The translations under genes and the position numbers were made by a program. A model generated the notes under the pieces. That model was given only the letters and a program-made list of their open reading frames with translations, ran no database searches and was not told the origin of the DNA. Shown here in pieces: positions 34,134 through 56,578 of a stretch of DNA of 64,000 nucleotides. Each line of letters begins with the position of its first letter. Within the stretch, counting starts at the first letter, position 1. The stretch is taken from positions 20,173 to 84,172 of the forward strand of contig JAQTQE010000003.1 of assembly GCA_028712365.1 (NCBI GenBank). The letters run 5' to 3'. This stretch comes from a bacterium. GTDB lineage: Bacteria > CAYTYR01 > UBA6262.

Positions 34134-34412
34134 TTAAGTTCTCTTTTTGCTTAGTCTTTTGAGTTCTTTTATATCGCCTTTTATCAACTCAAGTTTTTTC
34201 AGCTTACTCCATCTTTTAATCTGTCTTTCTCTATCATATGCTTGTAGTTCTTCGTCGAAATGTTCTGTATAGATAATTTTATTAGGCTTGCTGCTCTTTG
34301 TATACCCTCCGCCCTTACCAGAAACATGTTCTTGAAATCTTCTTTTTAAATTCCCAGTAACTCCGGTGTAATACTTTCCATTTCCACATTCAAGAATATA
34401 CAAATACCACAT
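34134..34412 (-). CDS. Small GIY-YIG nuclease-family protein (YhbQ/UPF0213-like)
   Basis: WYLYILECGNGKYYTGVTGNLKRRFQEH…RERQIKRWSKLKKLELI fits the ~95-aa stand-alone GIY-YIG family. Confidence 0.75.
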   Translation of the reverse strand: MWYLYILECGNGKYYTGVTGNLKRRFQEHVSGKGGGYTKSSKPNKIIYTEHFDEELQAYDRERQIKRWSKLKKLELIKGDIKELKRLSKKRT

Positions 34413-34527
34413 AATTTATGTACCCTTCGATGCGTTCGTTCCTCTCACTTACTCAGGGTAGTTCGACGAAATGCTTGTAGTGAGCAAAGAGGGTGGTCAA
34501 TTAAATGACCACCCTCTGCGTCGAACT

Positions 34528-34848
34528 ACTGCCTGGGTAGGACTCGAACCTACAACCTAGCGGTTACAAGTATCCTCTGAGTTTCTTCAGAGCTTGGACT
34601 ATCTCATTCTCTTGTCCGAATGATCCCGGATTTAGAGAGTGGGCGCTTCCCCTAAATATTTCTAGAGTACTCCCTTGCGGGATAGTCTCTGCGCCTTCTC
34701 CGATTTTCCTTCGGAGCTTGGCTCAGGGTTACCTTACACCTTCCGGCAATCAGGGTTCCCTGAATTCACCCACTTTTTCAACCACGATTTCTCGTGGAAG
34801 CTGCAATTTTAATCACAGCCGCTCGCTCCACCATTGAGCTACCAGGCA
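34528..34848 (-). tRNA. tRNA-Asn(GUU) interrupted in the anticodon loop by a group I intron (exons 34815-34848 and 34528-34565)
   Basis: 5' exon UGCCUGG-UA-GCUC-AAUGGUG-GAGC-G-AGCGG-CUGU; 3' exon UAA-CCGCU-AGGUU-GUAGG-UUCGAGU-CCUAC-CCAGGCA-G. Joined, this gives a cloverleaf with loop CUGUUAA (GUU), U1:A72 and discriminator G73 as in bacterial tRNA-Asn. Confidence 0.7.
34566..34814 (-). ncRNA. Group I intron (249 nt, no ORF) within tRNA-Asn
   Basis: Splice site follows U (…GCUGU|), and the IGS GCAGC pairs with exon GCUGU including a U·G wobble. P2 hairpin CCACGAGAAATCGTGG. R element GCGCAGAGACTA and S element GAGATAGTCC form P7. P9 hairpin CTCTGAAGAAACTCAGAG. Terminal ωG. Confidence 0.65.

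Positions 34849-43387: not shown

Positions 43388-43407
<20 letters not shown>
43120..43407. repeat. GC-rich 123-bp tandem direct repeat (2 full copies + 42-bp partial) whose unit begins with the last ~21 nt of tRNA-Ala
   Basis: Copies at 43120-43242, 43243-43365 and 43366-43407, differing by one C/T substitution. Local GC is about 60% against about 42% for the window. Confidence 0.8.
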
Positions 43408-43469
<62 letters not shown>

Positions 43470-43925
43470 ACCCCCATCGCGGCAAAAACTAATTGCGCCG
43501 CTCTCCGTAGGGGGAACCTTAGGTTCCCCTCTCTCGGCGCTTAGTCGTCTTACTTTCGGAGTGATTGCAGAGTTTATCGCTCCCTGCGCTGTCACCCCCT
43601 CCTGATATTTTGCTATCAACCTTCTCAGTATATAATGTTAAAAAATATTATAGTTTCTGGCAACCTCAAGTCATCCTCTTCCAGTTAAAGAGCTCATCAC
43701 GCTTTCACAAGCTAACAAGGTAAATGCTTCTGTTACCCCTTGGGGTGTTTCTGAAAAATCTGGAACTCTTAGCAACTCTCGCGGTCACCCTCTTCCATTT
43801 AGTTTGCTTTTAGCTTTTCCGGGCCAAATGGATTATTTATTACAACCCTCACTGTCAACCCCTTCCGGGTTTAGTATAAAACGTTTTTCCTTTACACCTC
43901 TACACCTTATACCTTTATACCTGCT

Positions 43926-44670: not shown

Positions 44671-44757
44671 TTGATCCCATCCTGTCTTATTGAATTTGCT
44701 TAGCGGAGTTTATCCGCCAGTCCTGTAGGCGGAAATCCTATACTTACATTATTAAAA

Positions 44758-44848
44758 CGGAGAGGCTGGGATTCGAACCCAGGGTACAAGTTTTCACTCG
44801 TACAACCGCTTAGCAGGCGGCTGCCTTCAGCCACTCGGCCACCTCTCC
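44758..44848 (-). tRNA. tRNA-Ser(GCU), class II with a long variable arm
   Basis: GGAGAGG-UG-GCCG-AGUGGCUGAA-GGC…GCCGC-CUGCUAA-GCGGU-long arm-CUGGG-UUCGAAU-CCCAG-CCUCUCC-G. Confidence 0.8.
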
Positions 44849-44865
44849 ATTATGCTGGTTAAAAA

Positions 44866-45462
44866 TTAATTCCCTTTATTCATTTCACGAAAACGGATAT
44901 CAAACCATTTTTGGTCAGCTAATACTACTGAGGTTTGTGCTTGACGTTCTGGTATATTCCAATATTTTCTCAGGATCTCTTCTTTTTCATTTGAAGAAAC
45001 CATTTGGAATCCGCATTTCTCATAGAAGTACGTTGCCCATTTCGCATCTTCCCACGTGCCTATTAACATCGGCTTGTGAGCCAATTTTTTCAAAAACATC
45101 AGTAATTCTTTGCCTACGCCCTTATTCCGTTTCACAGTACGAACATAAGCATGCCTGATCAGGGCAACGTCTTGGATATTCTGGATACCCATAACGCCTA
45201 CCAGTTGCCCTTCTTCTTCATATCCCCAGAACTCTACTCCTGCTCCTATTTCGTGCAGTAATTCTTCTTTGGACATATAAGGTTCTTTCCATCGATCCTG
45301 GGGAATGACTCCTTTGTACGCTTGGGCAGAATCATTTATGATTTCAAAAATCACATCAATGTCTGACTTATCGCATTTTCTGATCATAGTCCCCTCGCAA
45401 TGGAGGATGAAAACGGACGCGGTTGCAACCAATTCGAACCGCCGGTGAAATAACCGCCACAA
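44866..45462 (-). CDS. GNAT-family N-acetyltransferase
   Basis: Acetyl-CoA binding motif RNKGVGKELLMFL. Confidence 0.75.
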   Translation of the reverse strand: MWRLFHRRFELVATASVFILHCEGTMIRKCDKSDIDVIFEIINDSAQAYKGVIPQDRWKEPYMSKEELLHEIGAGVEFWGYEEEGQLVGVMGIQNIQDVALIRHAYVRTVKRNKGVGKELLMFLKKLAHKPMLIGTWEDAKWATYFYEKCGFQMVSSNEKEEILRKYWNIPERQAQTSVVLADQKWFDIRFREMNKGN

Positions 45463-45620
45463 TCAGGGTCCAACCCACCCAAAGTATATATTTATATCAA
45501 AAACTCTCCCAAAAAGCAAGAGAACTCTTTCTATTGGGGATGTCCTATAACAAAATAGCCGAAACCCTAAAAGTTAGTAAAAATACTATTATCAAGGCTT
45601 GCAAAGCCAAAAGGAGCTAA
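45423..45620 (+). CDS. Small HTH protein (sigma-70 region-4 / resolvase-type HTH), possibly a remnant
   Basis: C-terminal ELFLLGMSYNKIAETLKVSKNTIIKA is a classic HTH. Confidence 0.3.
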   Translation: MQPIRTAGEITATIRVQPTQSIYLYQKLSQKARELFLLGMSYNKIAETLKVSKNTIIKACKAKRS

Positions 45621-45623
45621 ATT

Positions 45624-45827
45624 ATGTCTTGGCCATATATTATTTATAGCCTGCTATATTCAAAAGAAAAGCCTGTATGGGTCAAAATCCGCATCTTACA
45701 CGAAACCGATAAAGCTATCTTAGTCTACTGTGGCAGAAAACTCTGGATCCCAAAATCCCGGATATACGGAATAAGACTAAGGAACAGTACCTTTGAGATC
45801 TATGTTAAAGAAAGTACCATTGGGTAA
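45624..45827 (+). CDS. Small hypothetical protein
   Basis: ORF only. Confidence 0.25.
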   Translation: MSWPYIIYSLLYSKEKPVWVKIRILHETDKAILVYCGRKLWIPKSRIYGIRLRNSTFEIYVKESTIG

Positions 45828-45834
45828 TACCCAA

Positions 45835-46929
45835 TTATGCCTTATCCGTCTTCAATTCTATTATTAAATCTTCATGCCGTTTTACAAAGTCTTTTACAAG
45901 GTTTAAATGTCCTACTTTAAGTGCCAAAATACCTTTTATTCTTGATAATCTTTCTGCTGGTTTGAGAGAATTTATTTTATCGTCAAGTAAAGGCTTTAAC
46001 TCCGCCAAAAGACACGGTACTATTCTTTTTGCTGATTTATCAAAACGAATGGCGAACTGGTCTAGATAATCGGGGATCGCAGAAGTTAAAAGCTGTTTTA
46101 TTCCTTTTAAACTCTGCGCTGCTGAATTATTTGATAGTGAATTCACCTTTATAGGTAACACTGCTCTTACAGAGAGTAAGGCTTTATCTTTCTTATTAAG
46201 TACTTCTTCCTTAATCTCATCTATGCTTTGCTCAGTAAAGGGGCCATATGTTGTTCTGGCTAAGACACCTAATGCTTTAAACAAGGGGAAACAAGACCCA
46301 TGTATTTTAGATGCGACTATAATTGGTATGCAACGTTCCTTATTTGCTTTTTGATATACATCCCAAATCTGCCAAGAATCAGGATAAATCCATTCTACCG
46401 TATTATAAATCCTAATAAGAATATTCCCTGCATTATTTCTTGTTTTTAGTAAAAACTCAAGATGATTTTTATTCTTATTTATAAGAGATTCAATGATTAA
46501 ATAATTCGATTCTTTACATATTGATTCTATCTTTTGCTTAAGAAGCGTCGCTGTTTTTTGTGAGTATATTTGTTGATTTACAGATTTCACTATTTTAGAT
46601 TTTACTTGCAATGTTTCAGCATTTAAACCCCCAACATGTGAATGGAAATATTTATTTTTAAATTCAATCCCATTTTCCGCAAGCAATTCCTGCCCTATTT
46701 TCGAATTAATAAAAATGGTCACACTCAATGGATCAAAACGAAGATTCCCTGGCCCAACTTCACATAAACGGTATATAAGCTCATCATACCCAACTACACA
46801 TTCCCTATTTATAAGGTCTATTAGACGAATGGATAAGTATAAAGATACCTCTTCGGAAGACAATCTAAAAACACTTGATTGTTTCACTTTGTTTACAACA
46901 TTATTTGTATTTTGCTTTGTCATTTTCAT
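45835..46929 (-). CDS. Hypothetical protein (364 aa), AT-rich island gene preceded by iterons
   Basis: ORF; no recognisable motif. Confidence 0.4.
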   Translation of the reverse strand: MKMTKQNTNNVVNKVKQSSVFRLSSEEVSLYLSIRLIDLINRECVVGYDELIYRLCEVGPGNLRFDPLSVTIFINSKIGQELLAENGIEFKNKYFHSHVGGLNAETLQVKSKIVKSVNQQIYSQKTATLLKQKIESICKESNYLIIESLINKNKNHLEFLLKTRNNAGNILIRIYNTVEWIYPDSWQIWDVYQKANKERCIPIIVASKIHGSCFPLFKALGVLARTTYGPFTEQSIDEIKEEVLNKKDKALLSVRAVLPIKVNSLSNNSAAQSLKGIKQLLTSAIPDYLDQFAIRFDKSAKRIVPCLLAELKPLLDDKINSLKPAERLSRIKGILALKVGHLNLVKDFVKRHEDLIIELKTDKA

Positions 46930-47049
46930 ATTTTATGGCTCATAGGATTGTACAAGGTTATAATATTATAACCTTTACAATCCTATAACAAACATTCTAT
47001 TTAATTAGAGTATTTATAATATTATAAATACTCTTTTACCTTATTTGTA

Positions 47050-47141
47050 TTTCGGACACTATTTCGGACAATTTCATACTATTTCGGACATCTTCATTTC
47101 GGACACTATTTCGGACAAAACTAAAGCATTTTGGACATTCT
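47050..47141. repeat. Five direct copies of TTTCGGACA (plus one degenerate copy) at irregular 12-20-bp spacing: an iteron-like array upstream of the 364-aa gene
   Basis: Copies at 47050, 47062, 47082, 47097 and 47109; the degenerate copy is TTTTGGACA at 47130. Confidence 0.7.
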
Positions 47142-47142
47142 T

Positions 47143-48672
47143 TTAAGATTTCTTTCTAAAGAAGGCTCCTTTAGTAGCACCAATCTTCTCTATATACCCA
47201 ATTAGAAGCATCTTCTTAAAATCCCTCCGAGCGGTTTTTTCGTTTACCTTGAATTTCTTACAATAGGTTCCTATTTCCATGGTTTCATTTTTATTTATCA
47301 TTAACCTTAAAGCCTCTATTTGCCGTTCATTTAAACCTAACTTTCTAAGATCAGTCTGCCGTTCTTCCGGGACACTCGGCACTAAATCCAGAATCTTGTC
47401 TCCGGGGCCAAAAAAGCGGGTTACAAAGAACTCACCTTCTTCTTCAAACACAGGTACAGACAGCCCATGGGCTTTCATTAGCTTTTTCATTTTGCTGATT
47501 CCGGTACCAAAGCGCTCCATGTCCATAGTTTCATGGAAAATATGACAGATTGCTTTATTGCGCGTAGCATGATGCCCTTCAAGCTTCTTTATATTAAGGC
47601 CTGGTAATAAACCGCCAGGATTACTGACTTCCACTCGATCATCGAAAATTGAAACCATAATTGGAGCTCCGCTTTTTGTATAATCGCGATGTGCTATGGC
47701 ATTAATGATGGATTCGCGTACAGCTTCGTATGGATATTCAGGTATATCGACCCGTTTGAACTCGACGATTTTATTGGCTAATCTAGTATTGCGGATGAAA
47801 AAAGATTTCACTTCATCAAGCATCTTATAAATCGGACCTTTAATTTCCTGTGAGTCAATAAACTCCGAGCGAGTCGTTCCTTTATAGCGAGCTATACGGA
47901 TTTCATGATGGGAAATATGGTCAGAAGGAGCTTTACCAAAGAAAAGAAGAGCGGTATTAGTGGGATGCAAATCCCCATCTTCCTTTCTTATTACCTTAAG
48001 GGTGTCAATAAGAAATTTCCTTATTGTTATTTTTGGAATGGCAACTTTCAATTTAACTGCACGATTTTGAAGAAAATCTCTTACTGCCTGCTCATCGATA
48101 GACTCATATCCAAGATCTCGATGTATTGCTTTATCAAAGGGGCCTTTTGTGGATTCTATTTTATCTTCAAGAAAAGAATTAAGGCTGTTAAGAACCTGAG
48201 TTTTTAATTCATCAATATTTAGAAAACGCTTATAAATAAAGTCCGCTCTGATATTTTTAACAAAGTTCTGTGTGTCCTGGTCTCGCCTGAAATCATCTGT
48301 AGAATCACCTTTGATAAATGCAATTATTTCCCTGTCTGAGTGCGTTTTTAAAAAATGTTGAAATTCCCTTTCCGTAGCGGAGAGATTATCCTTCCCTTTA
48401 TACCCATAATTCTTACCAATTATGCACACATAAATATTGCTATCAGCGACGTTTTTAAGATAAGTTACTGCTGGTGACTTTCCTTTAGCAGGCAGATCTT
48501 CAAATAGAAAAACATCAAAAAACTTCTGAAGAGTGGCATTGTTGTCTACTACTCCTTTTATGGCAAAGCGTTCAGCTTTTAGTTCTTTCTGATTTGCGCT
48601 TACGAATATTTTATATGTCATATCCCAGCCTTTGAGATTTATTTTTGTTCTTGGACTCTCAAATACTTTCAA
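47143..48672 (-). CDS. DUF4062-like N-terminal domain fused to Schlafen/AlbA_2 and a HATPase_c_4-type C-terminal domain (RecG-C-terminal-like 'transcriptional regulator')
   Basis: N-terminal IFVSANQKELKAERFAIKG matches the VFISSTFxDLxxER DUF4062 motif. The middle and C-terminal regions (…IAHRDYT…VSNPGGL…GTGI…) fit the AlbA_2 + HATPase_c_4 architecture. Confidence 0.55.
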   Translation of the reverse strand: MKVFESPRTKINLKGWDMTYKIFVSANQKELKAERFAIKGVVDNNATLQKFFDVFLFEDLPAKGKSPAVTYLKNVADSNIYVCIIGKNYGYKGKDNLSATEREFQHFLKTHSDREIIAFIKGDSTDDFRRDQDTQNFVKNIRADFIYKRFLNIDELKTQVLNSLNSFLEDKIESTKGPFDKAIHRDLGYESIDEQAVRDFLQNRAVKLKVAIPKITIRKFLIDTLKVIRKEDGDLHPTNTALLFFGKAPSDHISHHEIRIARYKGTTRSEFIDSQEIKGPIYKMLDEVKSFFIRNTRLANKIVEFKRVDIPEYPYEAVRESIINAIAHRDYTKSGAPIMVSIFDDRVEVSNPGGLLPGLNIKKLEGHHATRNKAICHIFHETMDMERFGTGISKMKKLMKAHGLSVPVFEEEGEFFVTRFFGPGDKILDLVPSVPEERQTDLRKLGLNERQIEALRLMINKNETMEIGTYCKKFKVNEKTARRDFKKMLLIGYIEKIGATKGAFFRKKS

Positions 48673-48714
48673 CTTTCAGTGCCTGACCTCGTTGTTTTTC
48701 CGATTAGCTAAATA

Positions 48715-49248
48715 CTATTTTATCATTAAATTATTTAACTCAGTTTTTTTATTACTAAATTTGTCAGCTATTCTTTGTATAAATTCAGGCCGCATAAATG
48801 AAATATTTCCAACTTTATTATAAACGGACAACGGAGTCCTTAATCTACCACTTTCGTCTTTTTCAATATTTAATCTTATATGGTGTTCATAAAATAATGC
48901 AAATATTTCTATATCATCTGGATCAATGAAAGCATAATTATTATTTAGTATTTCATATATTTTGTTATTGTTTTCCCTAACTTGCTTTATAAAATCATTT
49001 GCAATTTCAATGGTTTTACTAATAGTTGAACTATTATCATCTACATTTAAAAACTTATTATTCAATTCAAATAGCTTTGAAATTTGAAAGGTAAGAAAAT
49101 ATATGGGCCCATATAATTTCCTTATTTGTTCATTAAGAAAAATTATTCTTCTTTCTTTTTTATCGGAACGTTCTGCTCTTGCCCAATTTATAGCCGCACT
49201 TACAATACCTCCACCCAAGAAACTGATAATTAGACTTAATACATTCAT
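48715..49248 (-). CDS. Hypothetical protein with a single N-terminal TM helix
   Basis: TM at residues ~4-24, soluble remainder; the shared island cis-element lies upstream. Confidence 0.4.
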   Translation of the reverse strand: MNVLSLIISFLGGGIVSAAINWARAERSDKKERRIIFLNEQIRKLYGPIYFLTFQISKLFELNNKFLNVDDNSSTISKTIEIANDFIKQVRENNNKIYEILNNNYAFIDPDDIEIFALFYEHHIRLNIEKDESGRLRTPLSVYNKVGNISFMRPEFIQRIADKFSNKKTELNNLMIK

Positions 49249-49312
49249 TATTTACTCCATTTAACGACGAATTGATCGAAAATATGGCAGTTTAATCTGG
49301 GTGACACATTAC

Positions 49313-49340
49313 AATAAATGATTATCGTGTCCCCAGATAT
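49313..49340 (-). promoter_or_regulatory. Island cis-element copy (a): GGGGACACGATAATCATTTATTG (gene orientation)
   Basis: Shared 25-bp motif (see findings). Confidence 0.45.
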
Positions 49341-49366
49341 GGACTCCTTTGGTTTGGGACAGTCCC

Positions 49367-50218
49367 CTAAAACTGTAATTTATTCAGTTGGATCAACAAA
49401 TTAGAGTCAAGATTACATAATTGTACTTTATTATTAAAATAGTTTATAAGATAGATGTATTTCTCAATAATCTCCGGTTTTACCCTATTTTCATCTAACT
49501 GATCATATATTTTTGTTTTCATAATGCTTAACCAATCAAGTAAATCCTTGCCCTTGGACATATATTGTTCCCTGTTTGGCAAATCAAAGAAAATATCAAA
49601 ACATCTAATACCAGTATGGTCAATAAAGGGCATTCTATGCCTAATAGTATCTGAGACCCCCTTTCTATATTCCTTATCAATTAAATCGTATAAATCCGTA
49701 ATTAATTTATAAATACTATCATCAAATATTATTCTCGGATATACTGCTTTATCCTGCAATTGATAGGCATTTATTAAAGCAGGACTAAATATAAAACGAT
49801 TGCCCGAACCATCTTGAAACTTTTTATCAAAATGGGCCCCCTTTACAATTGCGCCTCGACAAAAGTGACCAGTCTTTATTATAACTTGGATATAGACATA
49901 TCTAACAAAAAACAAGTAATAATAATATGCTAAAAGCTCATCAAATTCTTTTGGCACACCATTTAACTCATTACTATATCTACTTATCGGTATCGTTATA
50001 AGAATGGAATCTGATAGTATTATTAGTTGAACTTTTTCAAAAACCCGATGAAGAATCTCATCTTTAATTTCCAACTGTTGTTTTAAGAAACTGTCAATGT
50101 TTTCAAAAGCCTCCATTAATTCAGTAGCCTTTTCCGCATCACTACCATATTTATTAACGAGCCCTTTGTAACCAAGAATATCTAAATAACAAACAATATG
50201 TTCTTCCATGGTATTCAT
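49367..50218 (-). CDS. Hypothetical protein with a class-III nucleotidyl-cyclase-like (palm-domain) N-terminus
   Basis: IVCYLDILGYKGLV resembles the VFSDIVGFTAL metal-binding strand. LIILSDSILITI resembles the KTIGDAYM second-Asp strand. CRGAIVKGAHF resembles RIGIHTGPVVAG. Confidence 0.4.
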   Translation of the reverse strand: MNTMEEHIVCYLDILGYKGLVNKYGSDAEKATELMEAFENIDSFLKQQLEIKDEILHRVFEKVQLIILSDSILITIPISRYSNELNGVPKEFDELLAYYYYLFFVRYVYIQVIIKTGHFCRGAIVKGAHFDKKFQDGSGNRFIFSPALINAYQLQDKAVYPRIIFDDSIYKLITDLYDLIDKEYRKGVSDTIRHRMPFIDHTGIRCFDIFFDLPNREQYMSKGKDLLDWLSIMKTKIYDQLDENRVKPEIIEKYIYLINYFNNKVQLCNLDSNLLIQLNKLQF

Positions 50219-50255
50219 TTTAACAATTATCCTTTATCCACTTTTTCAGCATTCT

Positions 50256-51545
50256 TTATGTTATATTGTCTAACACAGCCCGCGCTGGGAGCAAAGCCAA
50301 CAAATTTTCAGTTTTTGCGCGATAACCTTTATCCGTCTGCACTATAAGATCAAGATGCATAAGCTCGTTTAAATCTCTACTTAACATTTTAGAGGAACCC
50401 TGTTTATAATAATCAACAATTTTAGGACTTAATGCCACCAATCCCTCTTTAGGTACGGGTTCATTTTTATCTGCAAGTTCGATAACGAGTGCCCGCATTC
50501 GCTTTGATGGTGTCTCAGATCTCTTATGTTCTTTAAATTTATCATATACGTAACTTTCCCAGGAAATTTCTAATACTTGCTTAAAAATATATTGCAATTG
50601 CTCAGCGAGCCCATCACGAAATCCTTGTATAGCATAGGTAATAAATTCGCAAATATTTCGTTTTTGAGTTGCAACGCTTAATTGCCTGTAATATTCGCTA
50701 CGGGTCAGATTGTAATGATTACTAAGAAGATGCGCGGCCGGAGAAGGAACTCCTGAGGCAATCAGGATGGCAAATTCCAGCAAACGCCCGACTCTTCCAT
50801 TGCCATCTCCAAATGGATGTACCCATTCAAGGTATAAATGTGCCACTATCGCTTTAATAATACTATTGGCAATTGGATGGGCGTCGGGGATTATAAAATA
50901 GTCACTATTTAACCAAATGCACATCTTATCCATTAAAAAATCAACATCTTGCGAATCAACTGCTTTATATACCCCAGCTACAACTGGAACGCTTCTAAAT
51001 TCACCCGGGATAGCATAATCAGGACAAGGAACATTTTGCAGGATAATTTTATTAAATCGCTTAATCTCTTCTTTGGATACTACGAATTTTTTGCCATTAC
51101 AAATTGTATCTTTTAGTTCGTTACATAAAAACAATATATTTTCTACTTCTTGTTTTAAATATTCTCGCGAAGGAGGAACTTCCAATTTATTATCTATAAT
51201 TTGCCTAACCTGTCCTTCTGAAAGCGTATTACCTTCAATAGCTGTTGTTGCACTAGCACCTTTAGCTAGGTATACCTTGTGCATTTCTTCCGCAATTGCT
51301 GGCTTTAGGGGTATGCGAGAAAGATGCTCACATTTCGACAAACACTCCCCAATTTGGACCCATGTTAAGGAAGGCAGGGCATTTAAGTTAACCTCAAATG
51401 CCAACCAAGGATATTTGCTAATAATGTCTTTATTTATGTCCATTAAATTGTCCTCAATAATGCCAATAATATCAACTAAATTACAATATATGTCATATAT
51501 TATGTCCAATATTAAGATATCATAAAATAATATATTTGTCAACAA
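50256..51545 (-). CDS. Fic/Doc-family protein (AMPylase-type)
   Basis: Canonical Fic motif HPFGDGNGRVGR. Confidence 0.8.
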   Translation of the reverse strand: MLTNILFYDILILDIIYDIYCNLVDIIGIIEDNLMDINKDIISKYPWLAFEVNLNALPSLTWVQIGECLSKCEHLSRIPLKPAIAEEMHKVYLAKGASATTAIEGNTLSEGQVRQIIDNKLEVPPSREYLKQEVENILFLCNELKDTICNGKKFVVSKEEIKRFNKIILQNVPCPDYAIPGEFRSVPVVAGVYKAVDSQDVDFLMDKMCIWLNSDYFIIPDAHPIANSIIKAIVAHLYLEWVHPFGDGNGRVGRLLEFAILIASGVPSPAAHLLSNHYNLTRSEYYRQLSVATQKRNICEFITYAIQGFRDGLAEQLQYIFKQVLEISWESYVYDKFKEHKRSETPSKRMRALVIELADKNEPVPKEGLVALSPKIVDYYKQGSSKMLSRDLNELMHLDLIVQTDKGYRAKTENLLALLPARAVLDNIT

Positions 51546-51595
51546 AAATTACGTGGATTTATGACGGGTATATACTGGAAGTAGGTCAATTCTAG

Positions 51596-51778
51596 TTAAT
51601 AGCGAGGGCTTACTTTATTTGCTTTTATATAATTCTCGACATCTATAATGTCAAATTTTGTTAATCTGCCAACCTTTACATACGGGAATTTCTTCATAGA
51701 TACCCAGCTATATAGTGTATTTACACTTATATTCAGTATTGAGGCAGTTTCTTTTATTCCCATAAGCCTTGATGCCAT
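51596..51778 (-). CDS. AlpA/Xis-family small HTH DNA-binding protein
   Basis: 60 aa; IKETASILNISVNTLYSWVSMKKFPYVKVGRLTKFDIIDVENYI resembles excisionase/AlpA HTH_17. Confidence 0.65.
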   Translation of the reverse strand: MASRLMGIKETASILNISVNTLYSWVSMKKFPYVKVGRLTKFDIIDVENYIKANKVSPRY

Positions 51779-51817
51779 TTTCTAAGTCTATCCATCCGCT
51801 TTCGGATTTTACCTGTT

Positions 51818-51861
51818 TATTTAATTAGTATCGTGTCCCCGGAATTTGTGTCCCCAGATAT
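51818..51861 (-). promoter_or_regulatory. Island cis-element copy (b), with a duplicated GGGGACAC half-site
   Basis: ATATCTGGGGACACAAATTCCGGGGACACGATACTAATTAAATAAA. Confidence 0.45.
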
Positions 51862-51874
51862 ATCCTATATACTT

Positions 51875-53599
51875 TCATGAATGTCCCTTATCTTTCCAGT
51901 ACTGTGCATCAACCTTAATGAACTCCAAACGAGCCGGGTCAATCCACGAGATGAAAGAGGACGGCGTTTTCCATTTGCCAGCGAAGTTTCGGGTGCGAAT
52001 CAGGGTGCATTTTTTGCGTGTGCGAGTGAGCCCGACCACAAACTTGCAGATCTCGAGATCCTTGATTGAAGCCGAATCATGCGGTAATTCCCCATTGTGC
52101 AGACCAGCGATGTACACGTGTTGTGCGGAGAGGCCCTTGGCTCCCTCGAAGGAGGTCACTTTGACAGTAGGGATGTCCACTGATGCGTGAGTCTCTGCTT
52201 CAGCTTCTAGCTCCTCTGCCGGTTGGTACGCATTGGCCTCAGCCAGCACGTGCTCGCGGTATTCACTTGGGAGTACGTCAACAAGACGGTGCCTACCAGC
52301 TGCAGTCGCGACAATAGCTTCATGGAGAAAGGAAGGAGAGTCTGTACCAAGAACAATTCGCCAACCGAGATTAGAGAACTGATCAACTTTCAGAATCAAT
52401 AGACCCACTTCCCGATTGAGCTTGGTATCGGAGTCGCGCCGTGTGTCGACATTGTACCCCACGCTTTCAAGATGGCTGACGACTTGATCGCGGTAAGGCT
52501 GTGCCGCGATGACTAGTGCCGCAGGGTAGCCACCACGCAAAGCTGTCTCAATCTCATCCGATGGAATCTGGGCAATAGCTTGCGTGAGGTAGCGCCCCAT
52601 GTAGTTCACTTTCTGTCTCTGAACCGACGTCTCCACGTGCGCAATTTTCGGGTACTTTGCGCTGTCAGATCCCTTTGCAGGAGGAAAGTGTTTGTAGGGC
52701 TTATCAATCCTCCCTTCGAGACTGTCCAGCTCCTTAGCCTGGGTCAGCACGTCATTGACTGCATCGACGATCACCTTTGGGCAACGCATACAGAACGGAA
52801 GCTTGAAGACCTGATACTCCCCGGCATTGCTGAGGAGCCGGATATGATCCCAACTAGCATCGCGCAGCTGACTATACAGAGCCTGGTCATCATCACCGGC
52901 AATCAGGATGGGGCTACATTCAGCCAAAATGTCGATAACCCCCGCCTCAAGTGCGTTGAAGTCCTGGTACTCGTCAATTAGAATAAGCTTGTAGGAATTG
53001 GGCACAACATGCCCTGATGATAGTCCCTTATACACTCTGTAAACGGTATCGTCGAAATCGACCGCGTCGTAGTACTTGCCACGAGATAGGTAGAATGGAA
53101 TATGGTTCTCTTCTTTAAGCGAACGCATCTCGCTAACAAACTGAGGAGCATCATTTTGAGTGATAATCTCCCAGTCCGCTGCGATAAGGCTCGCAAGCCC
53201 GGGACAGCAGCGAAAATCTGTCGATAGAGACTTTCTGAGTGCCGGTTCGCGGTGCAGTAGGCCTAGGCAGTATGAGTGAAGCGTGAATACCTTAGCCAGT
53301 TCGCTTAGATCGTCCTCCAAATCGTTCTTTAGGTTGTTAATAAATGTGAGGACAATCCGCTGATCAGGCGTACCAGGTGCAAGCTCGAGCATCTGCTTGA
53401 AAAGCGTCGTCTTGCCGGTACCTGGGCCGGCAATCACCAGTTTCTTCTCACTGGGGGAACTCAGTACAGCCTTGATGGCGGCTCTGAGTTCAGCCATTTC
53501 CGGACCCTGCTTCTTGTCCTCTGACATGTCCCCCTCCAACTCCAGGCAATCAATCCAACGACAAAACTCACAGTTGCGGCTCTGCCGCATCCTGTACAT
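51875..53599 (-). CDS. UvrD/Rep-family (SF1) DNA helicase, GC-rich relative to its surroundings
   Basis: Walker A AGPGTGKTT; LILIDEYQDFN (motif II); C-terminal VTSFEGAKGLSAQHVYIAGL…GLTRTRKKC, typical of UvrD_C. Confidence 0.75.
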   Translation of the reverse strand: MYRMRQSRNCEFCRWIDCLELEGDMSEDKKQGPEMAELRAAIKAVLSSPSEKKLVIAGPGTGKTTLFKQMLELAPGTPDQRIVLTFINNLKNDLEDDLSELAKVFTLHSYCLGLLHREPALRKSLSTDFRCCPGLASLIAADWEIITQNDAPQFVSEMRSLKEENHIPFYLSRGKYYDAVDFDDTVYRVYKGLSSGHVVPNSYKLILIDEYQDFNALEAGVIDILAECSPILIAGDDDQALYSQLRDASWDHIRLLSNAGEYQVFKLPFCMRCPKVIVDAVNDVLTQAKELDSLEGRIDKPYKHFPPAKGSDSAKYPKIAHVETSVQRQKVNYMGRYLTQAIAQIPSDEIETALRGGYPAALVIAAQPYRDQVVSHLESVGYNVDTRRDSDTKLNREVGLLILKVDQFSNLGWRIVLGTDSPSFLHEAIVATAAGRHRLVDVLPSEYREHVLAEANAYQPAEELEAEAETHASVDIPTVKVTSFEGAKGLSAQHVYIAGLHNGELPHDSASIKDLEICKFVVGLTRTRKKCTLIRTRNFAGKWKTPSSFISWIDPARLEFIKVDAQYWKDKGHS

Positions 53600-53604
53600 G
53601 CTGG

Positions 53605-54480
53605 TTAGGTATTTTGTTTTGCATACACTTGTTCAAATGAATCAAATAATCTCATATTAACAGAATTTATCCATTTAAATAAATTTTCAAAATAATCCAA
53701 GTCTACGTCTATTCTTTTTAACCATAATATATATGGCTCATTTGTAAATCGTAGTAAAGGAGTGATGAATCTCATATCTACAGACTGATAATGAGGGTAT
53801 GTTGAAAATGTGCCGTCTTTATTACGTATTAAATTAAAATCCATAGACTCGTTCCAAGAACCATGTATTGATTCTGAAGGAATTCCATATAAATATTTAT
53901 ACATATCCTCACGAAATAGTTCTTTAAATATTTGATAAAAACTTTTCCCTGAGAGTTTCCATTTATTTTTCTTTTGCTCACTAAATGAAGCTACTGTTAG
54001 CTCTTCAGCATTCATTTTTTCTAAAATTGACTTTTTTAACCTAACACCCGCTGGAGTTTTAAAAAAGCCGGAAGATCTTTGTGAATCAACAATTATGTTT
54101 AACCGATCCTTGTATGAACACTTCCTGTAGTCTTCCACAACATTATCTCCATTAAGCAAAAGATATTTTGCAATAACAGCAGATTCCAATATTTGTCTAT
54201 CCAGAAGAGAAATTATATCACCTTTGTTTTCCTTATAATAGTAAACAACTTCTTTAAGAATTTTCCAAACCCTTATTAATAAACCCAATATTGCAGCATC
54301 ATTAAAATTATATCCGGTGGGATTTCTATCAATATTTATTATTCTTGTTATTGCATCATATATATCAGCAACATCTCCATAAAAATTATTAGAAAAGTCT
54401 TTCATTCTATCAAGTGAGGATAGCGCAAGGCTTATGTCAATTTCTTTATATTGATCAATAATATTTTGTATTTCTTCCAT
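53605..54480 (-). CDS. Hypothetical protein (291 aa), 5 bp upstream of the helicase
   Basis: ORF; the island cis-element lies upstream. Confidence 0.4.
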   Translation of the reverse strand: MEEIQNIIDQYKEIDISLALSSLDRMKDFSNNFYGDVADIYDAITRIINIDRNPTGYNFNDAAILGLLIRVWKILKEVVYYYKENKGDIISLLDRQILESAVIAKYLLLNGDNVVEDYRKCSYKDRLNIIVDSQRSSGFFKTPAGVRLKKSILEKMNAEELTVASFSEQKKNKWKLSGKSFYQIFKELFREDMYKYLYGIPSESIHGSWNESMDFNLIRNKDGTFSTYPHYQSVDMRFITPLLRFTNEPYILWLKRIDVDLDYFENLFKWINSVNMRLFDSFEQVYAKQNT

Positions 54481-54507
54481 TTTATTTGCCTAACATTGAA
54501 TCTGGGA

Positions 54508-54550
54508 GCATAATACTCATTTATTTAATTATTATTGTGTTCCCCGATTT
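54508..54550 (-). promoter_or_regulatory. Island cis-element copy (c)
   Basis: AAATCGGGGAACACAATAATAATTAAATAAATGAGTATTATG. Confidence 0.45.
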
Positions 54551-55334
54551 CATCTACTTTCTTAATTGAATTTAGGATGTCTTGTTGGTTTCTAAAGGAT
54601 TGCACGGGAAGTGTCTTTGCCCATTGTTCTAAAGTTCTTATCTTGAAATTGTAGTTTATAAGTAATTGCCTCTTAGTGAACCTTAATAGGCTTGGATCCT
54701 TAATAATAAATTGTAGCCGAGTAAATAAAATCTCATACTGAGCGAACAATGCAACACAATATATAAACGGCAGGAACATCAATAACATTACCGGTGGTAA
54801 AGCCAAGTCCTTTAGGGTCTGTATCTTCGCAAGGTTTCTGAAATCGCTGAGAATATGATAGAAGGCATAGCCGAAAATCCATAGACCAAACATTATTAGG
54901 ATATCATTTAACAGTTTCTGGACAGGCTTGTACTTCTCATTAGTTTCCGCTACTGCAAGCATTCCCCCGATAAGTGCAGCAATAGGCACTAGAATGAACT
55001 CAATGATTAAGCTAAATACATATAAGTTAACGATGAAGTCAATAAACACAGTGAATCTTATACTATCTTTTACAGCCTTTGTAAAAAAGTGCGAATCTTC
55101 AATGATATTATTAATTTGGAAAAGCATTATTGTAGCAATAGTCATACCCCAGATGATGGTTGATTTCAGCTGAGATATATCCCAGAGTCCAATGCGAGAA
55201 AGTACTACGACCTCTAAAACGATATAAAATAGCATCAAAACCGCTGAGACTATGATTGGCGTTACAAAAAGTGCTTTAAAAACCTGCTCTAGTGACTGCC
55301 TAATATGATTTTTAGTTAATGCCCAAATTAGCAA
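54525..55334 (-). CDS. Hypothetical polytopic membrane protein (about 7 TM segments)
   Basis: Hydrophobicity pattern; the island cis-element lies upstream. Confidence 0.45.
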   Translation of the reverse strand: MLIWALTKNHIRQSLEQVFKALFVTPIIVSAVLMLFYIVLEVVVLSRIGLWDISQLKSTIIWGMTIATIMLFQINNIIEDSHFFTKAVKDSIRFTVFIDFIVNLYVFSLIIEFILVPIAALIGGMLAVAETNEKYKPVQKLLNDILIMFGLWIFGYAFYHILSDFRNLAKIQTLKDLALPPVMLLMFLPFIYCVALFAQYEILFTRLQFIIKDPSLLRFTKRQLLINYNFKIRTLEQWAKTLPVQSFRNQQDILNSIKKVDEIGEHNNN

Positions 55335-55430
55335 AGCACTTAACCAAAAAATAATTGCTATCTCTCTGTTATCAAAAATCGTAATAGCACCTCATTTGGC
55401 ATCTTATTATCAATTATCTGTTATCTAAGA

Positions 55431-55488
55431 ACATAATACTCATTTATTAAATTGATACTGTGTCCCTCCGTTTTACGTCCCCGATTTT
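55431..55488 (-). promoter_or_regulatory. Island cis-element copy (d)
   Basis: AAAATCGGGGACG…GGGACACAGTATCAATTTAATAAATGAGTATTATG. Confidence 0.45.
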
Positions 55489-55540
55489 AAAAACCGCGAT
55501 GAAGCATACTCTTTACTCCAGTCATATTTTTTCCGCAATC

Positions 55541-56578
55541 TTAGCAACAGTCGCATAAATTTATTTCATTAAAAACTGAACAGCCACCCTTGCAGACTGA
55601 GAAATGTAAACACGCTTTACATTTCTCATAAATGATCTTGCTACGCATATCACGAAACACGGAGGCGTTTTGCCAAGCATCTAAAATCGAAACGCTTCTC
55701 AGATCTATCCCAGTAACCTCGCGTTCCATAAAGGAACATGGGTAAAACATCATTTTTTCAGAAATAAAGGCAGAAAAACGCCCCGCTTCACACGCTTCAA
55801 CCGATATGGGGTTATATTTAAGTTGACTAACTATGCCAGGAACGCAACAACTATCAAACCCAATCTTTATCTTGGAAGTACTAATTAGCGAAAAGAATAA
55901 CTCGGCGTCGGAAGACATCCTTAAGATATTTGAATGACTTCCTTTTCCAGCAGGTTTAAATAATAAAAATATTAGAGCGTTAACTCCAGATACCTTTTGA
56001 ATGCCCCTTGATAAAAATTCTATCGCAGAATCAAGTGTGCTGGCAGACAACACAAAATGAACATTTGTTTTAATTCCTGCATCTATCAATTTATTCAAAT
56101 TTGAATAAAACAAAGTTTCCGGCTCATAAAAACTAATTGCAACAGCTCCACAATGCATCCTTGATGCGGCAAGAATTCTGTCAGATAAGCCATCCCCATT
56201 CGTGGTATAAGAAGGGACGATATTATATTTCTCTCGCGTTACTTCAAGGATCCTTTCAAAGCTAGAATGTTGATTAGGATTTCCGCCGCCAAGGGCTACT
56301 TGCAAGGCCCCACAGTCCCTCGCTTGTTTTAAAATGTATTCATAATCAGCAAGAGACATCTCCTTCCCATTTATTGACGATGCCCTATAGCAAAAAGAAC
56401 AGCTCCTTTCACAATAATTTGTTATTGATATATCAAGAAGCTCAGGACCATGCACGGAATAGACCGGCTCGACAGTATTTTCATCTTCAACACGAGCAAA
56501 AAAACCGGTATTTTGATTGAAAATAACGGTATATCTTTCCTTATCATATCGCTTAAGCAACAAAGAGTTCATTTTCAC
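55541..56578 (-). CDS. Radical SAM enzyme with a C-terminal SPASM domain (anSME/peptide-maturase-like)
   Basis: CX3CX2C radical-SAM motif CERSCSFC. Full SPASM Cys set: C…YPC and CKACLHFSVCKGGC (CX2CX5CX3C). Confidence 0.8.
   Translation of the reverse strand: MKMNSLLLKRYDKERYTVIFNQNTGFFARVEDENTVEPVYSVHGPELLDISITNYCERSCSFCYRASSINGKEMSLADYEYILKQARDCGALQVALGGGNPNQHSSFERILEVTREKYNIVPSYTTNGDGLSDRILAASRMHCGAVAISFYEPETLFYSNLNKLIDAGIKTNVHFVLSASTLDSAIEFLSRGIQKVSGVNALIFLLFKPAGKGSHSNILRMSSDAELFFSLISTSKIKIGFDSCCVPGIVSQLKYNPISVEACEAGRFSAFISEKMMFYPCSFMEREVTGIDLRSVSILDAWQNASVFRDMRSKIIYEKCKACLHFSVCKGGCSVFNEINLCDCC

What the first reader, a model, noticed from the sequence alone, without database searches (positions are those of the whole stretch)
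34528..34848. Group I intron inside the anticodon of tRNA-Asn(GUU)
Joining 34815-34848 to 34528-34565 on the minus strand gives a canonical tRNA-Asn: loop CUGUUAA, U1:A72 and G73. The intervening 249 nt carry group I hallmarks. The splice site follows U, which pairs as U·G with an internal guide GCAGC. There is a P2 hairpin. R (CAGAGACUA) and S (AUAGUCC) elements form P7. There is a P9 hairpin and a terminal G. Bacterial tRNA group I introns are best known in tRNA-Leu(UAA), tRNA-fMet, tRNA-Ile(CAU) and tRNA-Arg. To my knowledge a tRNA-Asn host with insertion after position 35 is unusual. The intron has no ORF.
Basis: seen in the sequence. Interest (0 to 1): 0.7.

Follow-up and report, generated by a model that had tools for sequence, protein, structure and literature searches.

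The report
Self-splicing intron inside a tRNA-Asn gene
The window's asparagine tRNA gene is split in its anticodon by a 248-base group I (self-splicing type) intron; this is a real but already described kind of element (catalogued 2020, splicing of relatives shown 2026), here found in a new uncultured bacterial lineage.

Summary
On the minus strand, 34848-34815 plus 34566-34529 join into a canonical bacterial tRNA-Asn(GUU) with U1-A72 and G73. The 248 nt between them (34814-34567) are a group I intron: Rfam Intron_gpI scores 79.9 bits, E=1e-18. U35 pairs as U·G with the guide GCAGC, and the intron ends in G. P1-P9 fold as expected. Two extra hairpins between P7 and P3' (P7.1/P7.2) mark subgroup IA, not the classical IC3 tRNA introns. 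Across 21 relatives, 91% of cells pair and 47 of 74 pairs show compensatory changes.

The class is not new. It is "Asn.4Ug" in Williams 2020. Nakagawa et al. 2026 showed precise in vitro self-splicing of 35/36 tRNA-Asn introns in Patescibacteria.

This copy has no ORF and sits in an unclassified, non-Patescibacteria lineage. A relative with the same gene order carries an intronless allele with the predicted junction. Among 120 metagenome contigs sharing this 5' half, only 2 carry the intron.

A capped GTDB scan found at least 112 further cases across many phyla; 21 carry an HNH-like ORF.

By-product: small GIY-YIG genes abut tRNA-Asn genes whether or not the intron is present.

The parts
34815..34848 (-). 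5' exon of tRNA-Asn(GUU), tRNA positions 1-35 (ends ...C32 U33 G34 U35)
   Evidence: Sequence. ARAGORN on joined and unspliced DNA. It is near-identical to the 5' half of the intronless tRNA-Asn in L303; the halves differ only at position 31, G versus A.
34567..34814 (-). Group I intron, 248 nt, no ORF, subgroup IA-like; omega-G at 34567
   Evidence: Rfam RF00028 79.9 bits, E=1.1e-18. The MFE fold reproduces P1-P9, z=-4.56. Covariation on 21 homologues.
34529..34566 (-). 3' exon of tRNA-Asn, positions 36-73 (U36 A37 A38 ... G73); CCA is not encoded
   Evidence: The junction CUGU|UAA is identical to the intronless allele in L303/L304.
34799..34820 (-). P1: exon G30-U35 plus intron nt 1-3 paired with intron nt 8-16 (AUUGCAGCU; internal guide). 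U35·G wobble at the 5' splice site; loop UAAA.
   Evidence: P1 was found in 110 of 113 homologues. Exon position 31 covaries with guide position 5: G with C or U, C with G, A with U.
34782..34797 (-). P2 hairpin CCACGA-GAAA-UCGUGG
   Evidence: Five of 6 pairs show compensatory changes; 99% of cells pair (helix 2).
34767..34773 (-). P3, 5' strand (GUGGGUG)
   Evidence: Pairs with 34645..34639. 100% of cells pair and 3 pairs are compensatory (helix 3).
34693..34763 (-). P4-P5-P5a-P6-P6a domain
   Evidence: helices 4-8: all 6 pairs of P6a are compensatory.
34683..34687 (-). P7, 5' strand (GACUA within CAGAGACUA, the 'R' element)
   Evidence: Pairs with UAGUC at 34601..34597. It is invariant in all homologues because the search pattern required it, so it carries no covariation information.
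34650..34682 (-). P7.1 (UCCC-GCAA-GGGA, 34682..34671) and P7.2 (CUCUAGA-AAUA-UUUAGGG, 34667..34650), inserted between P7 and P3'
   Evidence: Appears as a 35-nt insertion relative to the Rfam model. Both hairpins are in the MFE fold. P7.1 has 4 of 4 compensatory pairs and P7.2 has 5 of 6 (helices 10-12). L414 carries a U-A to C-G change in P7.2.
34639..34645 (-). P3, 3' strand (CGCCCAC)
34609..34637 (-). P8 (CUCU/AGAG base with UCCGG/UCGGA tip)
   Evidence: The base helix pairs in 94% of cells with 3 compensatory pairs. The tip is variable and poorly aligned (helices 14-16).
34597..34601 (-). P7, 3' strand (UAGUC within GAGAUAGUCC, the 'S' element)
34575..34592 (-). P9 hairpin CUCUGA-AGAAAC-UCAGAG, followed by GAUACUUG ending in omega-G
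   Evidence: Five of 6 pairs are compensatory (helix 17).

Best explanation
This is a tRNA-Asn(GUU) gene interrupted between anticodon nucleotides U35 and U36 by an ORF-less, 248-nt group I intron of the IA structural type. The proposed mechanism follows; its steps are inferred from the anatomy and from experiments on homologues. The gene is transcribed as a precursor of about 320 nt. Anticodon-arm nucleotides G30-U35 pair with the intron's guide (5'-GCAGCU) to form P1, with a U35·G wobble. The intron folds into the P3-P8 core, buttressed by P2, P7.1/P7.2 and P9. A free guanosine bound at P7 attacks after U35. The terminal G (34567) then takes that site, and the 3'-OH of U35 attacks the 3' splice site. 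This rejoins U35-U36 and restores the anticodon loop CUGUUAA. Ordinary end-processing and CCA addition then finish the tRNA. The intron belongs to a widespread family that appears specific to tRNA-Asn. Larger members of that family carry an HNH-like endonuclease ORF in the P1 loop. The window copy is a derivative without that gene. It probably entered this lineage recently and is now inherited vertically.
For: SHOWN IN THE SEQUENCE
- Exons, junction and tRNA identity elements U1-A72 and G73.
- Rfam group I model 79.9 bits, E=1e-18, full length.
- The thermodynamic fold gives the textbook P1-P9 topology, z=-4.56.

COMPARATIVE SUPPORT
- On 21 homologues below 85% pairwise identity, 91.2% of cells pair, against 31-51% when partners are slid. 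47 of 74 pairs show double changes, against 30±2.5 in shuffles (0 of 500 reach it). This includes P7.1 and P7.2.
- P1 is present in 110 of 113 homologues, with exon/guide covariation.

JUNCTION CHECK
- A relative encodes a GIY-YIG neighbour 93% identical. Its aligned DNA around the tRNA gene is about 91-93% identical, with the same gene order. It has an uninterrupted tRNA-Asn reading ...GACUGUUAAUCGC..., exactly the predicted ligation product.

FAMILY
All 112 that parsed cleanly are tRNA-Asn(GUU) interrupted at 35/36.
- 21 of the 22 introns longer than 400 nt carry a conserved ORF with CxxC...HH...CxxCH. Pfam HNH matches 13 of 21, weakly.

SPORADIC OCCURRENCE
- Of 120 metagenome contigs with the same tRNA-Asn 5' half, 118 are intronless. 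One is the window's own contig. One (L414) has an intron 92.7% identical.

EXPERIMENT ON HOMOLOGUES
[quoted passage not shown] An omega-G to C change blocks exon ligation. 25 of 28 such introns classify as IA (PMC13011429, read).
Against: - No splicing experiment or RNA data exist for this copy. Its activity is inferred from intact core elements and from homologues.
- I could not measure how similar it is to the two introns actually tested.
- P7 is invariant in my set because the search pattern required it, so it has no covariation support.
- A convincing P10 is not evident. Exon alignment may rely on the tRNA anticodon stem.
- Only 64 kb of the genome is available, so I cannot say whether this is the only tRNA-Asn gene.
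- No sigma-70-like promoter was flagged upstream of the tRNA.
- Gain rather than loss is only the more parsimonious reading. The one outgroup contig (L312) breaks inside the anticodon loop.
Confidence: 0.9

Rival explanations
1. The intron is an inactive relic and the interrupted gene is a tRNA pseudogene. A second, intact tRNA-Asn elsewhere in the genome does the work.
For: Only 64 kb of the genome can be inspected, and no other tRNA-Asn lies in it. No RNA evidence exists.
Against: All core elements and both splice-site nucleotides are intact. The exons are a perfect tRNA, near-identical to the intronless allele of a relative apart from one compensated stem pair. The sister copy L414 differs by compensatory, structure-preserving changes, as expected under selection for folding. 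Nakagawa et al. report that intron-containing and intronless copies of the same anticodon rarely coexist in a genome (PMC13011429).
Confidence: 0.05
2. The host is really tRNA-Thr(UGU) with the intron at 33/34. This is the two-base-shifted solution that ARAGORN and tFind often prefer for this family.
For: ARAGORN gives exactly this call for the homologous loci L270 and L278. The ambiguity is documented in PMC13011429.
Against: In the window the shifted boundary would end the intron in U (...GAUACU|UGUAA) instead of G. ARAGORN itself calls Asn i(36,248) here. U1-A72 and G73 match bacterial tRNA-Asn, for example the E. coli tRNA-Asn recalled from my own knowledge. The intronless allele in L303 reads CUGUUAA.
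Confidence: 0.01
3. The adjacent free-standing GIY-YIG gene (34412..34134) is the intron's mobility partner, in 'collaborative homing'. On this view the intron is there because it disrupts or accompanies that endonuclease's target.
For: A 92-aa GIY-YIG ORF lies 116 nt downstream on the same strand. GIY-YIG ORFs abut the intron-bearing tRNA-Asn in about 10 of the 120 GTDB loci and occur nowhere else in those loci apart from one second copy about 1 kb downstream in L291.
Against: The same GIY-YIG family abuts intronless tRNA genes: tRNA-Asn in L303/L304, tRNA-Gln in L305, L306, L308, L309 and L310, and tRNA-Leu in L307. It also abuts 39 of 118 intronless tRNA-Asn contigs. The association is therefore with the tRNA gene, not with the intron. 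The protein is a bare catalytic domain with no recognisable DNA-binding domain. The family's own endonuclease is HNH-like and lies inside the intron.
Confidence: 0.04

Closest known systems
[quoted passage not shown]
   Same: Same host tRNA, same insertion site, U at -1 and G at omega. IA-type architecture (they classify 25 of 28 such introns as IA). Usually ORF-less and about 250 nt. Missed or mis-called by standard tRNA finders, as here.
   Different: The host here is not Patescibacteria: the window carries complex I and pyruvate:ferredoxin oxidoreductase genes, and its nearest named relatives are Ratteibacteria, TA06, Edwardsbacteria and Omnitrophota at 64-69% protein identity. The paper found 35/36 introns rare outside Patescibacteria in complete genomes, and HNH-bearing ones only there. 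In draft genomes I find both widely. Splicing of this copy is untested.
'Asn.4Ug' class in the tFind survey (Williams, bioRxiv 2020, 10.1101/2020.01.27.920355)
   Same: Same definition: tRNA-Asn, splice site after the fourth anticodon-loop nucleotide, U at -1 and g at omega.
   Different: That work is a catalogue only, with no structure, subgroup or experiment. Its counts per phylum are in a figure I could not read.
Classical bacterial tRNA introns of subgroup IC3: Anabaena/Nostoc tRNA-Leu(UAA) 34/35, cyanobacterial tRNA-fMet 33/34, Azoarcus tRNA-Ile(CAU) and Agrobacterium tRNA-Arg(CCU) 36/37
   Same: Small self-splicing introns in the anticodon loop. P1 is built from anticodon-arm nucleotides. 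Mostly ORF-less.
   Different: Different insertion position and different subgroup. From established knowledge, IC3 introns lack the P7.1/P7.2 hairpins that are present and covariation-supported here.
Phage subgroup IA introns (T4 td/nrdB, Twort orf142; established knowledge)
   Same: P7.1/P7.2 insertion between P7 and P3'. The intron core gives weak blastn matches to introns in phage genomes, for example in a Ralstonia phage DNA polymerase gene and in a tRNA(CAU) of Klebsiella jumbo phages.
   Different: Those interrupt protein-coding genes or other tRNAs and often carry homing endonuclease genes. Sequence identity is only 71-78% over partial cores.

Membership tests
Group I intron (Rfam RF00028) | Covariance-model score above the curated gathering threshold over the full model | tested here: met
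   79.9 bits against 50, model positions 1-253, E=1.1e-18.
Group I intron (Rfam RF00028) | P1 with U·G wobble at the 5' splice site, formed with an internal guide sequence | tested here: met
   GGCUGU|GAU pairs with AUUGCAGCU. Exon position 31 covaries with the guide in 110 of 113 homologues.
Group I intron (Rfam RF00028) | Conserved core P3-P8, including the P3/P7 pseudoknot | tested here: met
   P3, P4, P6 and the P8 base pair in 94-100% of cells, with compensatory changes. P7 (GACUA/UAGUC) is present but invariant by construction of the search.
Group I intron (Rfam RF00028) | Terminal guanosine (omega-G) before the 3' splice site | tested here: met
   G at 34567, followed by UAACCGC.
Group I intron (Rfam RF00028) | Guanosine-dependent self-splicing | not testable with these tools
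   Shown in vitro only for Patescibacteria homologues (PMC13011429).
tRNA-Asn(GUU) 35/36 intron class ('Asn.4Ug') | The host is tRNA-Asn: GUU anticodon after joining, U1-A72, G73 | tested here: met
   ARAGORN tRNA-Asn(gtt). The exons match the intronless tRNA-Asn of L303 except for one compensated stem pair.
tRNA-Asn(GUU) 35/36 intron class ('Asn.4Ug') | Insertion between tRNA positions 35 and 36 | tested here: met
   This is the only boundary that satisfies U-1, omega-G and a 7-nt loop. It is confirmed by the intronless allele.
tRNA-Asn(GUU) 35/36 intron class ('Asn.4Ug') | Sequence homology to other members | tested here: met
   70-74% identity over essentially the full length to L276, L243, L262 and L193. 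92.7% to L414. Shared invariant core.
Subgroup IA | Extra helices P7.1 and P7.2 between P7 and P3' (Michel-Westhof definition, from established knowledge) | tested here: met
   Two hairpins at 34682..34650. P7.1 has 4 of 4 compensatory pairs and P7.2 has 5 of 6.
Subgroup IA | Best score with subgroup-specific covariance models | not tested
   The models are not available here. PMC13011429 reports IA for 25 of 28 introns at 35/36.
Subgroup IC3 (classical tRNA introns) | Compact core without P7.1/P7.2 | tested here: not met
   35-nt structured insertion between P7 and P3'.
Mobile (endonuclease-encoding) group I intron | Intron-encoded homing endonuclease ORF | tested here: not met
   There is no ORF in the 248-nt intron. 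Relatives of 535-564 nt carry an HNH-like ORF in the P1 loop.

The most novel reading that the evidence does not exclude
The tRNA-Asn locus is a target for two independent selfish elements that may interact. One is the IA intron. The other is a family, undescribed as far as I can find, of about 90-aa free-standing GIY-YIG genes. These insert directly against the ends of tRNA-Asn, tRNA-Gln and tRNA-Leu genes. A subset related to the window copy shares a conserved leader that sequesters the ribosome-binding site. In the most novel reading, the GIY-YIG enzyme cuts tRNA-Asn genes, and the anticodon-loop intron spreads with it or protects against it, as in collaborative homing.
Probability: 0.07. 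Interest if true: 0.6.

Novelty: new member of a known kind. Interest (0 to 1): 0.25.

Why it matters
For the finding itself, the importance is modest. It is one more example of a documented intron class.

In practice, the gene is invisible to default tRNA annotation. A genome from this lineage would therefore appear to lack tRNA-Asn and would score as less complete.

The wider results add something to the 2026 picture. The tRNA-Asn 35/36 intron family is not essentially a Patescibacteria trait. It occurs in at least 112 species-level genomes labelled as Nitrospirota, Acidobacteriota, delta-proteobacteria, Binatia, Elusimicrobia, Planctomycetota, Ignavibacteria/Bacteroidota and others. Only about a tenth of them are CPR lineages. 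Variants bearing the HNH-like ORF are spread across the same phyla. Intron-plus and intron-minus alleles coexist at about 93% DNA identity. Together this fits ongoing horizontal mobility.

Tried and rejected
- Default ARAGORN and the Rfam tRNA model miss the gene. ARAGORN needs the intron option.
- My first exon parser failed on class II tRNAs. About half of the 60 viral hits to the general three-part pattern were chance matches.
- **Co-conversion idea, rejected.** The window has G31-C39 and the intronless relative has A31-U39. But G31 is the common state in 115 of 118 intronless genes and in the outgroup L312.
- **Intron-specific link to the GIY-YIG neighbour, rejected**.
- The leader pattern in viral contigs gave only chance matches.
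- Rfam at a permissive E-value finds no family in the tRNA to GIY-YIG spacer.
- Polarising gain against loss with outgroups failed. P0023 had no DNA available, and L312 ends inside the anticodon loop.
- The sigma-70 promoter scan found nothing upstream of the tRNA. The terminator scan did not flag the post-tRNA hairpin because its U-run is weak.
- The host phylum could not be resolved. The best named hits are at 64-69% identity.

Full report
**1. Observation**

Reading the minus strand gives three segments.
- The 5' segment is 34848..34815: UGCCUGGUAGCUCAAUGGUGGAGCGAGCGGCUGU.
- An intervening 248 nt run from 34814 to 34567.
- The 3' segment is 34566..34529: UAACCGCUAGGUUGUAGGUUCGAGUCCUACCCAGGCAG.

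The joined exons are called tRNA-Asn(gtt) by ARAGORN. With introns allowed, the unspliced DNA is called tRNA-Asn(gtt) i(36,248).

With those coordinates the loop would have six nucleotides. The intron is 248 nt, not 249.

Default ARAGORN and the Rfam tRNA model both miss the gene. Rfam Intron_gpI matches 34824..34575 over the whole model at 79.9 bits (gathering score 50), E=1.1e-18.

**2. Anatomy**

The minimum-free-energy fold of exon tail plus intron has z=-4.56 against shuffles. It reproduces the group I topology without any constraint.
- P1: GGCUGU|GAU with AUUGCAGCU, with a U35·G wobble.
- P2: a hairpin with a GAAA loop.
- P3: 34773..34767 with 34645..34639.
- P4, P5, P5a, P6 and P6a.
- P8 and P9.
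- P7: GACUA (34687..34683) with UAGUC (34601..34597). It crosses P3 and was added by hand.

Rfam shows a 35-nt insertion between P7 and P3'. It folds into two hairpins:
- UCCC-GCAA-GGGA
- CUCUAGA-AAUA-UUUAGGG

From established knowledge (Michel and Westhof; the T4 td and Twort introns), P7.1/P7.2 at this position is the hallmark of subgroup IA.

The shifted alternative, tRNA-Thr(UGU) with the intron at 33/34, is excluded here because it would end the intron in U. ARAGORN does make that call for homologues L270 and L278.

**3. Relatives**

I scanned one genome per GTDB species with this pattern:

AGACTA N60-90 GATAGTC N15-45 GTAA N13 GGTTCRA

The pattern fixes P7, the omega-G, U36-A37-A38 and the T-loop. 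It does not fix the 5' exon or anticodon positions 34-35.

All 112 loci that parsed cleanly are tRNA-Asn(GUU) with U1-A72 and G73, interrupted at 35/36. The other eight have Asn-like 3' halves but were cut or carry longer introns. L263, for example, has a 570-nt intron.

The record titles name:
- Nitrospirota (about 17) and Acidobacteriota including Aminicenantes (about 16);
- delta-proteobacteria (about 11) and Binatia (6);
- Elusimicrobia, Planctomycetota, Ignavibacteria/Bacteroidota, Rokubacteria, Burkholderiales and Cyanobacteria;
- Stahlbacteria, Omnitrophota, Edwardsbacteria and Ratteibacteria;
- only about 12 CPR/Patescibacteria.

The nearest introns to the window copy are from Ca. Stahlbacteria (L276, 74% over 251 nt), an unnamed MAG (L243), Omnitrophota (L262) and Edwardsbacteria (L275).

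**4. Covariation**

Sixty-four introns below 85% pairwise identity fall into two variants of the P7-P3' insert.
- The window type has two simple hairpins joined by GUAC (21 sequences).
- The second type has a conserved UGAGGA...CCAAUAA motif (43 sequences).

I tested the window structure on the 21 window-type sequences (alignment A1).
- 91.2% of cells form standard pairs, against 31-51% when partners are slid by 1-3 columns.
- 47 of 74 pairs show changes on both sides, against 30.0±2.5 in shuffles. None of 500 shuffles reached this.
- P2, P3, P6a, P7.1 (4 of 4 pairs), P7.2 and P9 are all supported.
- P7 never varies, because the search pattern required it.

P1 was found in 110 of 113 homologues. 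Exon position 31 covaries with guide position 5.

**5. Mobility**

Twenty-two of the 112 introns are longer than 400 nt: 21 of 535-564 nt and one of 462 nt (L287). In 21 of them, all but L287, the extra roughly 300 nt lie in the P1 loop.
- The guide sequence sits at about intron position 303-328.
- The ribozyme core aligns from about position 300 onward.

The extra sequence encodes a conserved ORF of about 110-130 aa (21 sequences, 45% mean column identity). It has invariant CxxC...HH...CxxCH. Pfam HNH matches 13 of 21, weakly: best E=8.7e-5, and the one member whose score was shown (17.5 against 21.4 bits) is below the curated cut-off.

The hosts include Nitrospira, delta-proteobacteria, Elusimicrobia, Blastocatellia, Ignavibacteria/Bacteroidota and gamma-proteobacteria as well as CPR lineages. 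The window intron has no ORF.

**6. Presence/absence polymorphism**

The window sequence recurs identically in two independent metagenome assemblies.

A relative (GCA_964441745.1, L303; also L304) has these properties:
- a GIY-YIG neighbour 93% identical;
- aligned DNA around the tRNA gene about 91-93% identical;
- the same gene order, PFOR-beta then tRNA-Asn then GIY-YIG;
- an intronless tRNA-Asn reading ...GCGACUGUUAAUCGC....

This confirms the predicted junction independently.

- 118 are intronless.
- One is the window's own contig.
- One (L414) carries an intron 92.7% identical, with compensatory differences such as U-A to C-G in P7.2.

The intron is therefore sporadic among close relatives. 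That favours recent gain, although loss cannot be formally excluded. The only outgroup contig (L312) ends inside the anticodon loop.

The G31-C39 (window) versus A31-U39 (L303) difference is not evidence of co-conversion, because G31 is the common state.

**7. Host**

The neighbouring genes encode:
- a four-subunit pyruvate:ferredoxin oxidoreductase;
- NADH dehydrogenase subunits;
- a CsgG-like lipoprotein;
- a TPR protein.

The PFOR-alpha protein is 96% identical to proteins from MAGs labelled only "bacterium". It is 64-69% identical to those of Ratteibacteria, TA06, Edwardsbacteria, Omnitrophota and Elusimicrobia. The host is an unclassified uncultured bacterium. On gene content it is not a Patescibacterium.

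**8. What is known**

Williams (bioRxiv 10.1101/2020.01.27.920355, read) expanded the known tRNA group I intron settings from 4 to 21. "Asn.4Ug" is this setting; the label is quoted from that preprint by PMC13011429.

Nakagawa et al. (mSystems 2026, PMC13011429, read) reported the following.
- They showed precise in vitro self-splicing, abolished at exon ligation by omega-G to C.
- They classified 25 of 28 such introns as IA.
- In 4,934 complete genomes the distribution was 19 Patescibacteria, 3 Cyanobacteriota, 3 Nitrospirota and 3 others.
- HNH genes occurred only in Patescibacteria copies.
- They noted that draft genomes might change this picture.

The window feature is thus a new member of a known kind. 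My scans extend the known distribution but do not change the kind.

**9. By-product: the GIY-YIG neighbour**

Downstream of the tRNA by 116 nt, on the same strand, lies a 92-aa GIY-YIG protein (34412..34134; Pfam E=1.5e-18).

In the 120 GTDB loci, a profile search finds 11 such ORFs in 9 loci.
- All are on the tRNA's strand.
- All directly abut the tRNA-Asn gene on one side or the other, except a second copy about 1 kb downstream in L291.
- None occurs elsewhere in those loci.

The link is to the tRNA gene, not to the intron.
- Homologues of the window protein sit 100-150 nt downstream of intronless tRNAs: tRNA-Asn (L303/L304, L311), tRNA-Gln (L305, L306, L308-L310) and tRNA-Leu (L307).
- In the sample of 120 metagenome contigs, 40 carry 44 GIY-YIG ORFs next to tRNA-Asn. 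Of these ORFs, 25 are downstream and about 15 upstream, always on the same strand.
- None was found next to any of the other tRNA genes in those contigs, at least 90 of them and mostly tRNA-Ser.

The closest homologues share a structured spacer that starts right after the discriminator base:

UGGUUCGACGC - variable hairpin - UUGCUCAC ... GUCGAACCA CCYGAGCAAGUG ... GAACGCGUCGARGG - AUG

RNAalifold on six sequences predicts three features.
- A long-range stem, with one AU-to-GC compensation.
- A fully covarying hairpin.
- A helix pairing CCYG with the Shine-Dalgarno GARGG. CCUG goes with GAAGG and CCCG goes with GAGGG.

No Rfam family matches this spacer. I found no description of it in the searched literature. 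The nearest analogue is T4 SegB, a free-standing GIY-YIG endonuclease in a tRNA gene cluster (PMC2330249).

**10. Verdict**

The finding is correct and well observed, but it belongs to a class that is published and experimentally validated. Interest is low to moderate. The GIY-YIG/tRNA association is the more novel lead.

Noticed in passing
window 34134-34412 (-); L303-L311; L324-L443; L186, L194, L243, L263, L270, L278, L279, L288, L291: Small (about 85-100 aa) GIY-YIG catalytic-domain ORFs lie directly against tRNA genes, always on the tRNA's strand. In 120 metagenome contigs chosen only by a tRNA-Asn 5' half, 40 contigs carry 44 such ORFs next to tRNA-Asn. None lies next to the at least 90 other tRNA genes in those contigs. 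Homologues of the window protein follow intronless tRNA-Asn, tRNA-Gln(UUG/CUG) and tRNA-Leu(GAG). The association is independent of the intron. It looks like a selfish-gene family that targets tRNA flanks. I found no description of it in the searched literature.
   Followed up: partly
window 34413-34528 (-); same region of L303, L305, L306, L307, L309: A conserved structured spacer lies between the tRNA 3' end and the GIY-YIG start codon. It has a long-range stem (UGGUUCGAC with GUCGAACCA), a variable terminator-like hairpin (window 34517-34488), and a helix pairing CCYG with the Shine-Dalgarno GARGG, with U-A to C-G compensation. UUCGACGC could alternatively pair with GCGUCGAA just upstream of the SD. 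There is no Rfam match. Only six sequences were tested.
   Followed up: partly
They are labelled as many phyla, and only about 12 are CPR/Patescibacteria. This is much wider than the 'rare outside Patescibacteria' picture from complete genomes. One hit is labelled Woesearchaeota and one Klebsiella; both are probably mis-binned contigs.
   Followed up: partly
L186, L191, L192, L204, L212, L216, L221, L229, L235, L236, L239, L241, L242, L259, L260, L274, L275, L284, L291, L297, L302: tRNA-Asn introns of 535-564 nt carry a conserved ORF of about 110-130 aa with an HNH-like CxxC...HH...CxxCH motif, in the P1 loop. They occur in Nitrospira, delta-proteobacteria, Elusimicrobia, Acidobacteria, Bacteroidota/Ignavibacteria and gamma-proteobacteria as well as CPR. 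The 2026 paper saw HNH-bearing copies only in Patescibacteria.
   Followed up: partly
alignment of 64 introns: The family has two structural variants of the P7-to-P3' insert. One is the window type, with two plain hairpins joined by GUAC (21 of 64). The other has a conserved UGAGGA...CCAAUAA motif (43 of 64).
   Followed up: no
L312 (end of contig, 5225-5260): A related contig (PFOR-alpha 86% identical) ends exactly inside the tRNA-Asn anticodon loop (...AGCGGCT). Such an assembly break is what one would expect if intron-plus and intron-minus alleles coexist in that sample.
   Followed up: no
L405 3412-3485; L422 1445-1518: ARAGORN calls a tRNA-like gene with an 8-nt anticodon loop ('gtta'). 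It overlaps or lies just upstream of a GIY-YIG ORF that is itself followed by a normal tRNA-Asn in L405. This may be a duplicated or damaged tRNA-Asn copy left by insertion of the GIY-YIG element.
   Followed up: no
L444 = Klebsiella phage Muenster MT708547.1, about 302826-303180; similar hits in phiKp_21, KP13-7, RCIP0023, TH47, Turkey5: An unannotated tRNA(CAU) interrupted at 36/37 by a group I intron (Rfam 104 bits) lies in the tRNA cluster of jumbo phages. An HNH endonuclease gene lies nearby.
   Followed up: partly
L008, L009, L012, L015, L018, L025, L034, L035, L055, L013, L022, L024, L028, L033, L036, L053 (IMG/VR contigs): Viral contigs carry several tRNA genes with group I introns that share the same P7 sequences: tRNA-Leu(UAA), tRNA(CAU) and others. 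In L006, L026 and L059 an intron ending in GATACTTG lies immediately before a T-arm-like sequence. That could be an insertion in a T-loop or a tmRNA-like gene.
   Followed up: no
window about 45000-60000: A low-GC stretch (31-36%, against about 43% elsewhere) lies next to tRNA-Ser(GCU) at 44757-44849 and tRNA-Ala(CGC) at 43400-43475. It encodes DUF4062/HATPase_c_4, Fic, a UvrD-like helicase, DUF5677 and a radical-SAM protein. It looks like an island of defence-type genes integrated at a tRNA.
   Followed up: partly
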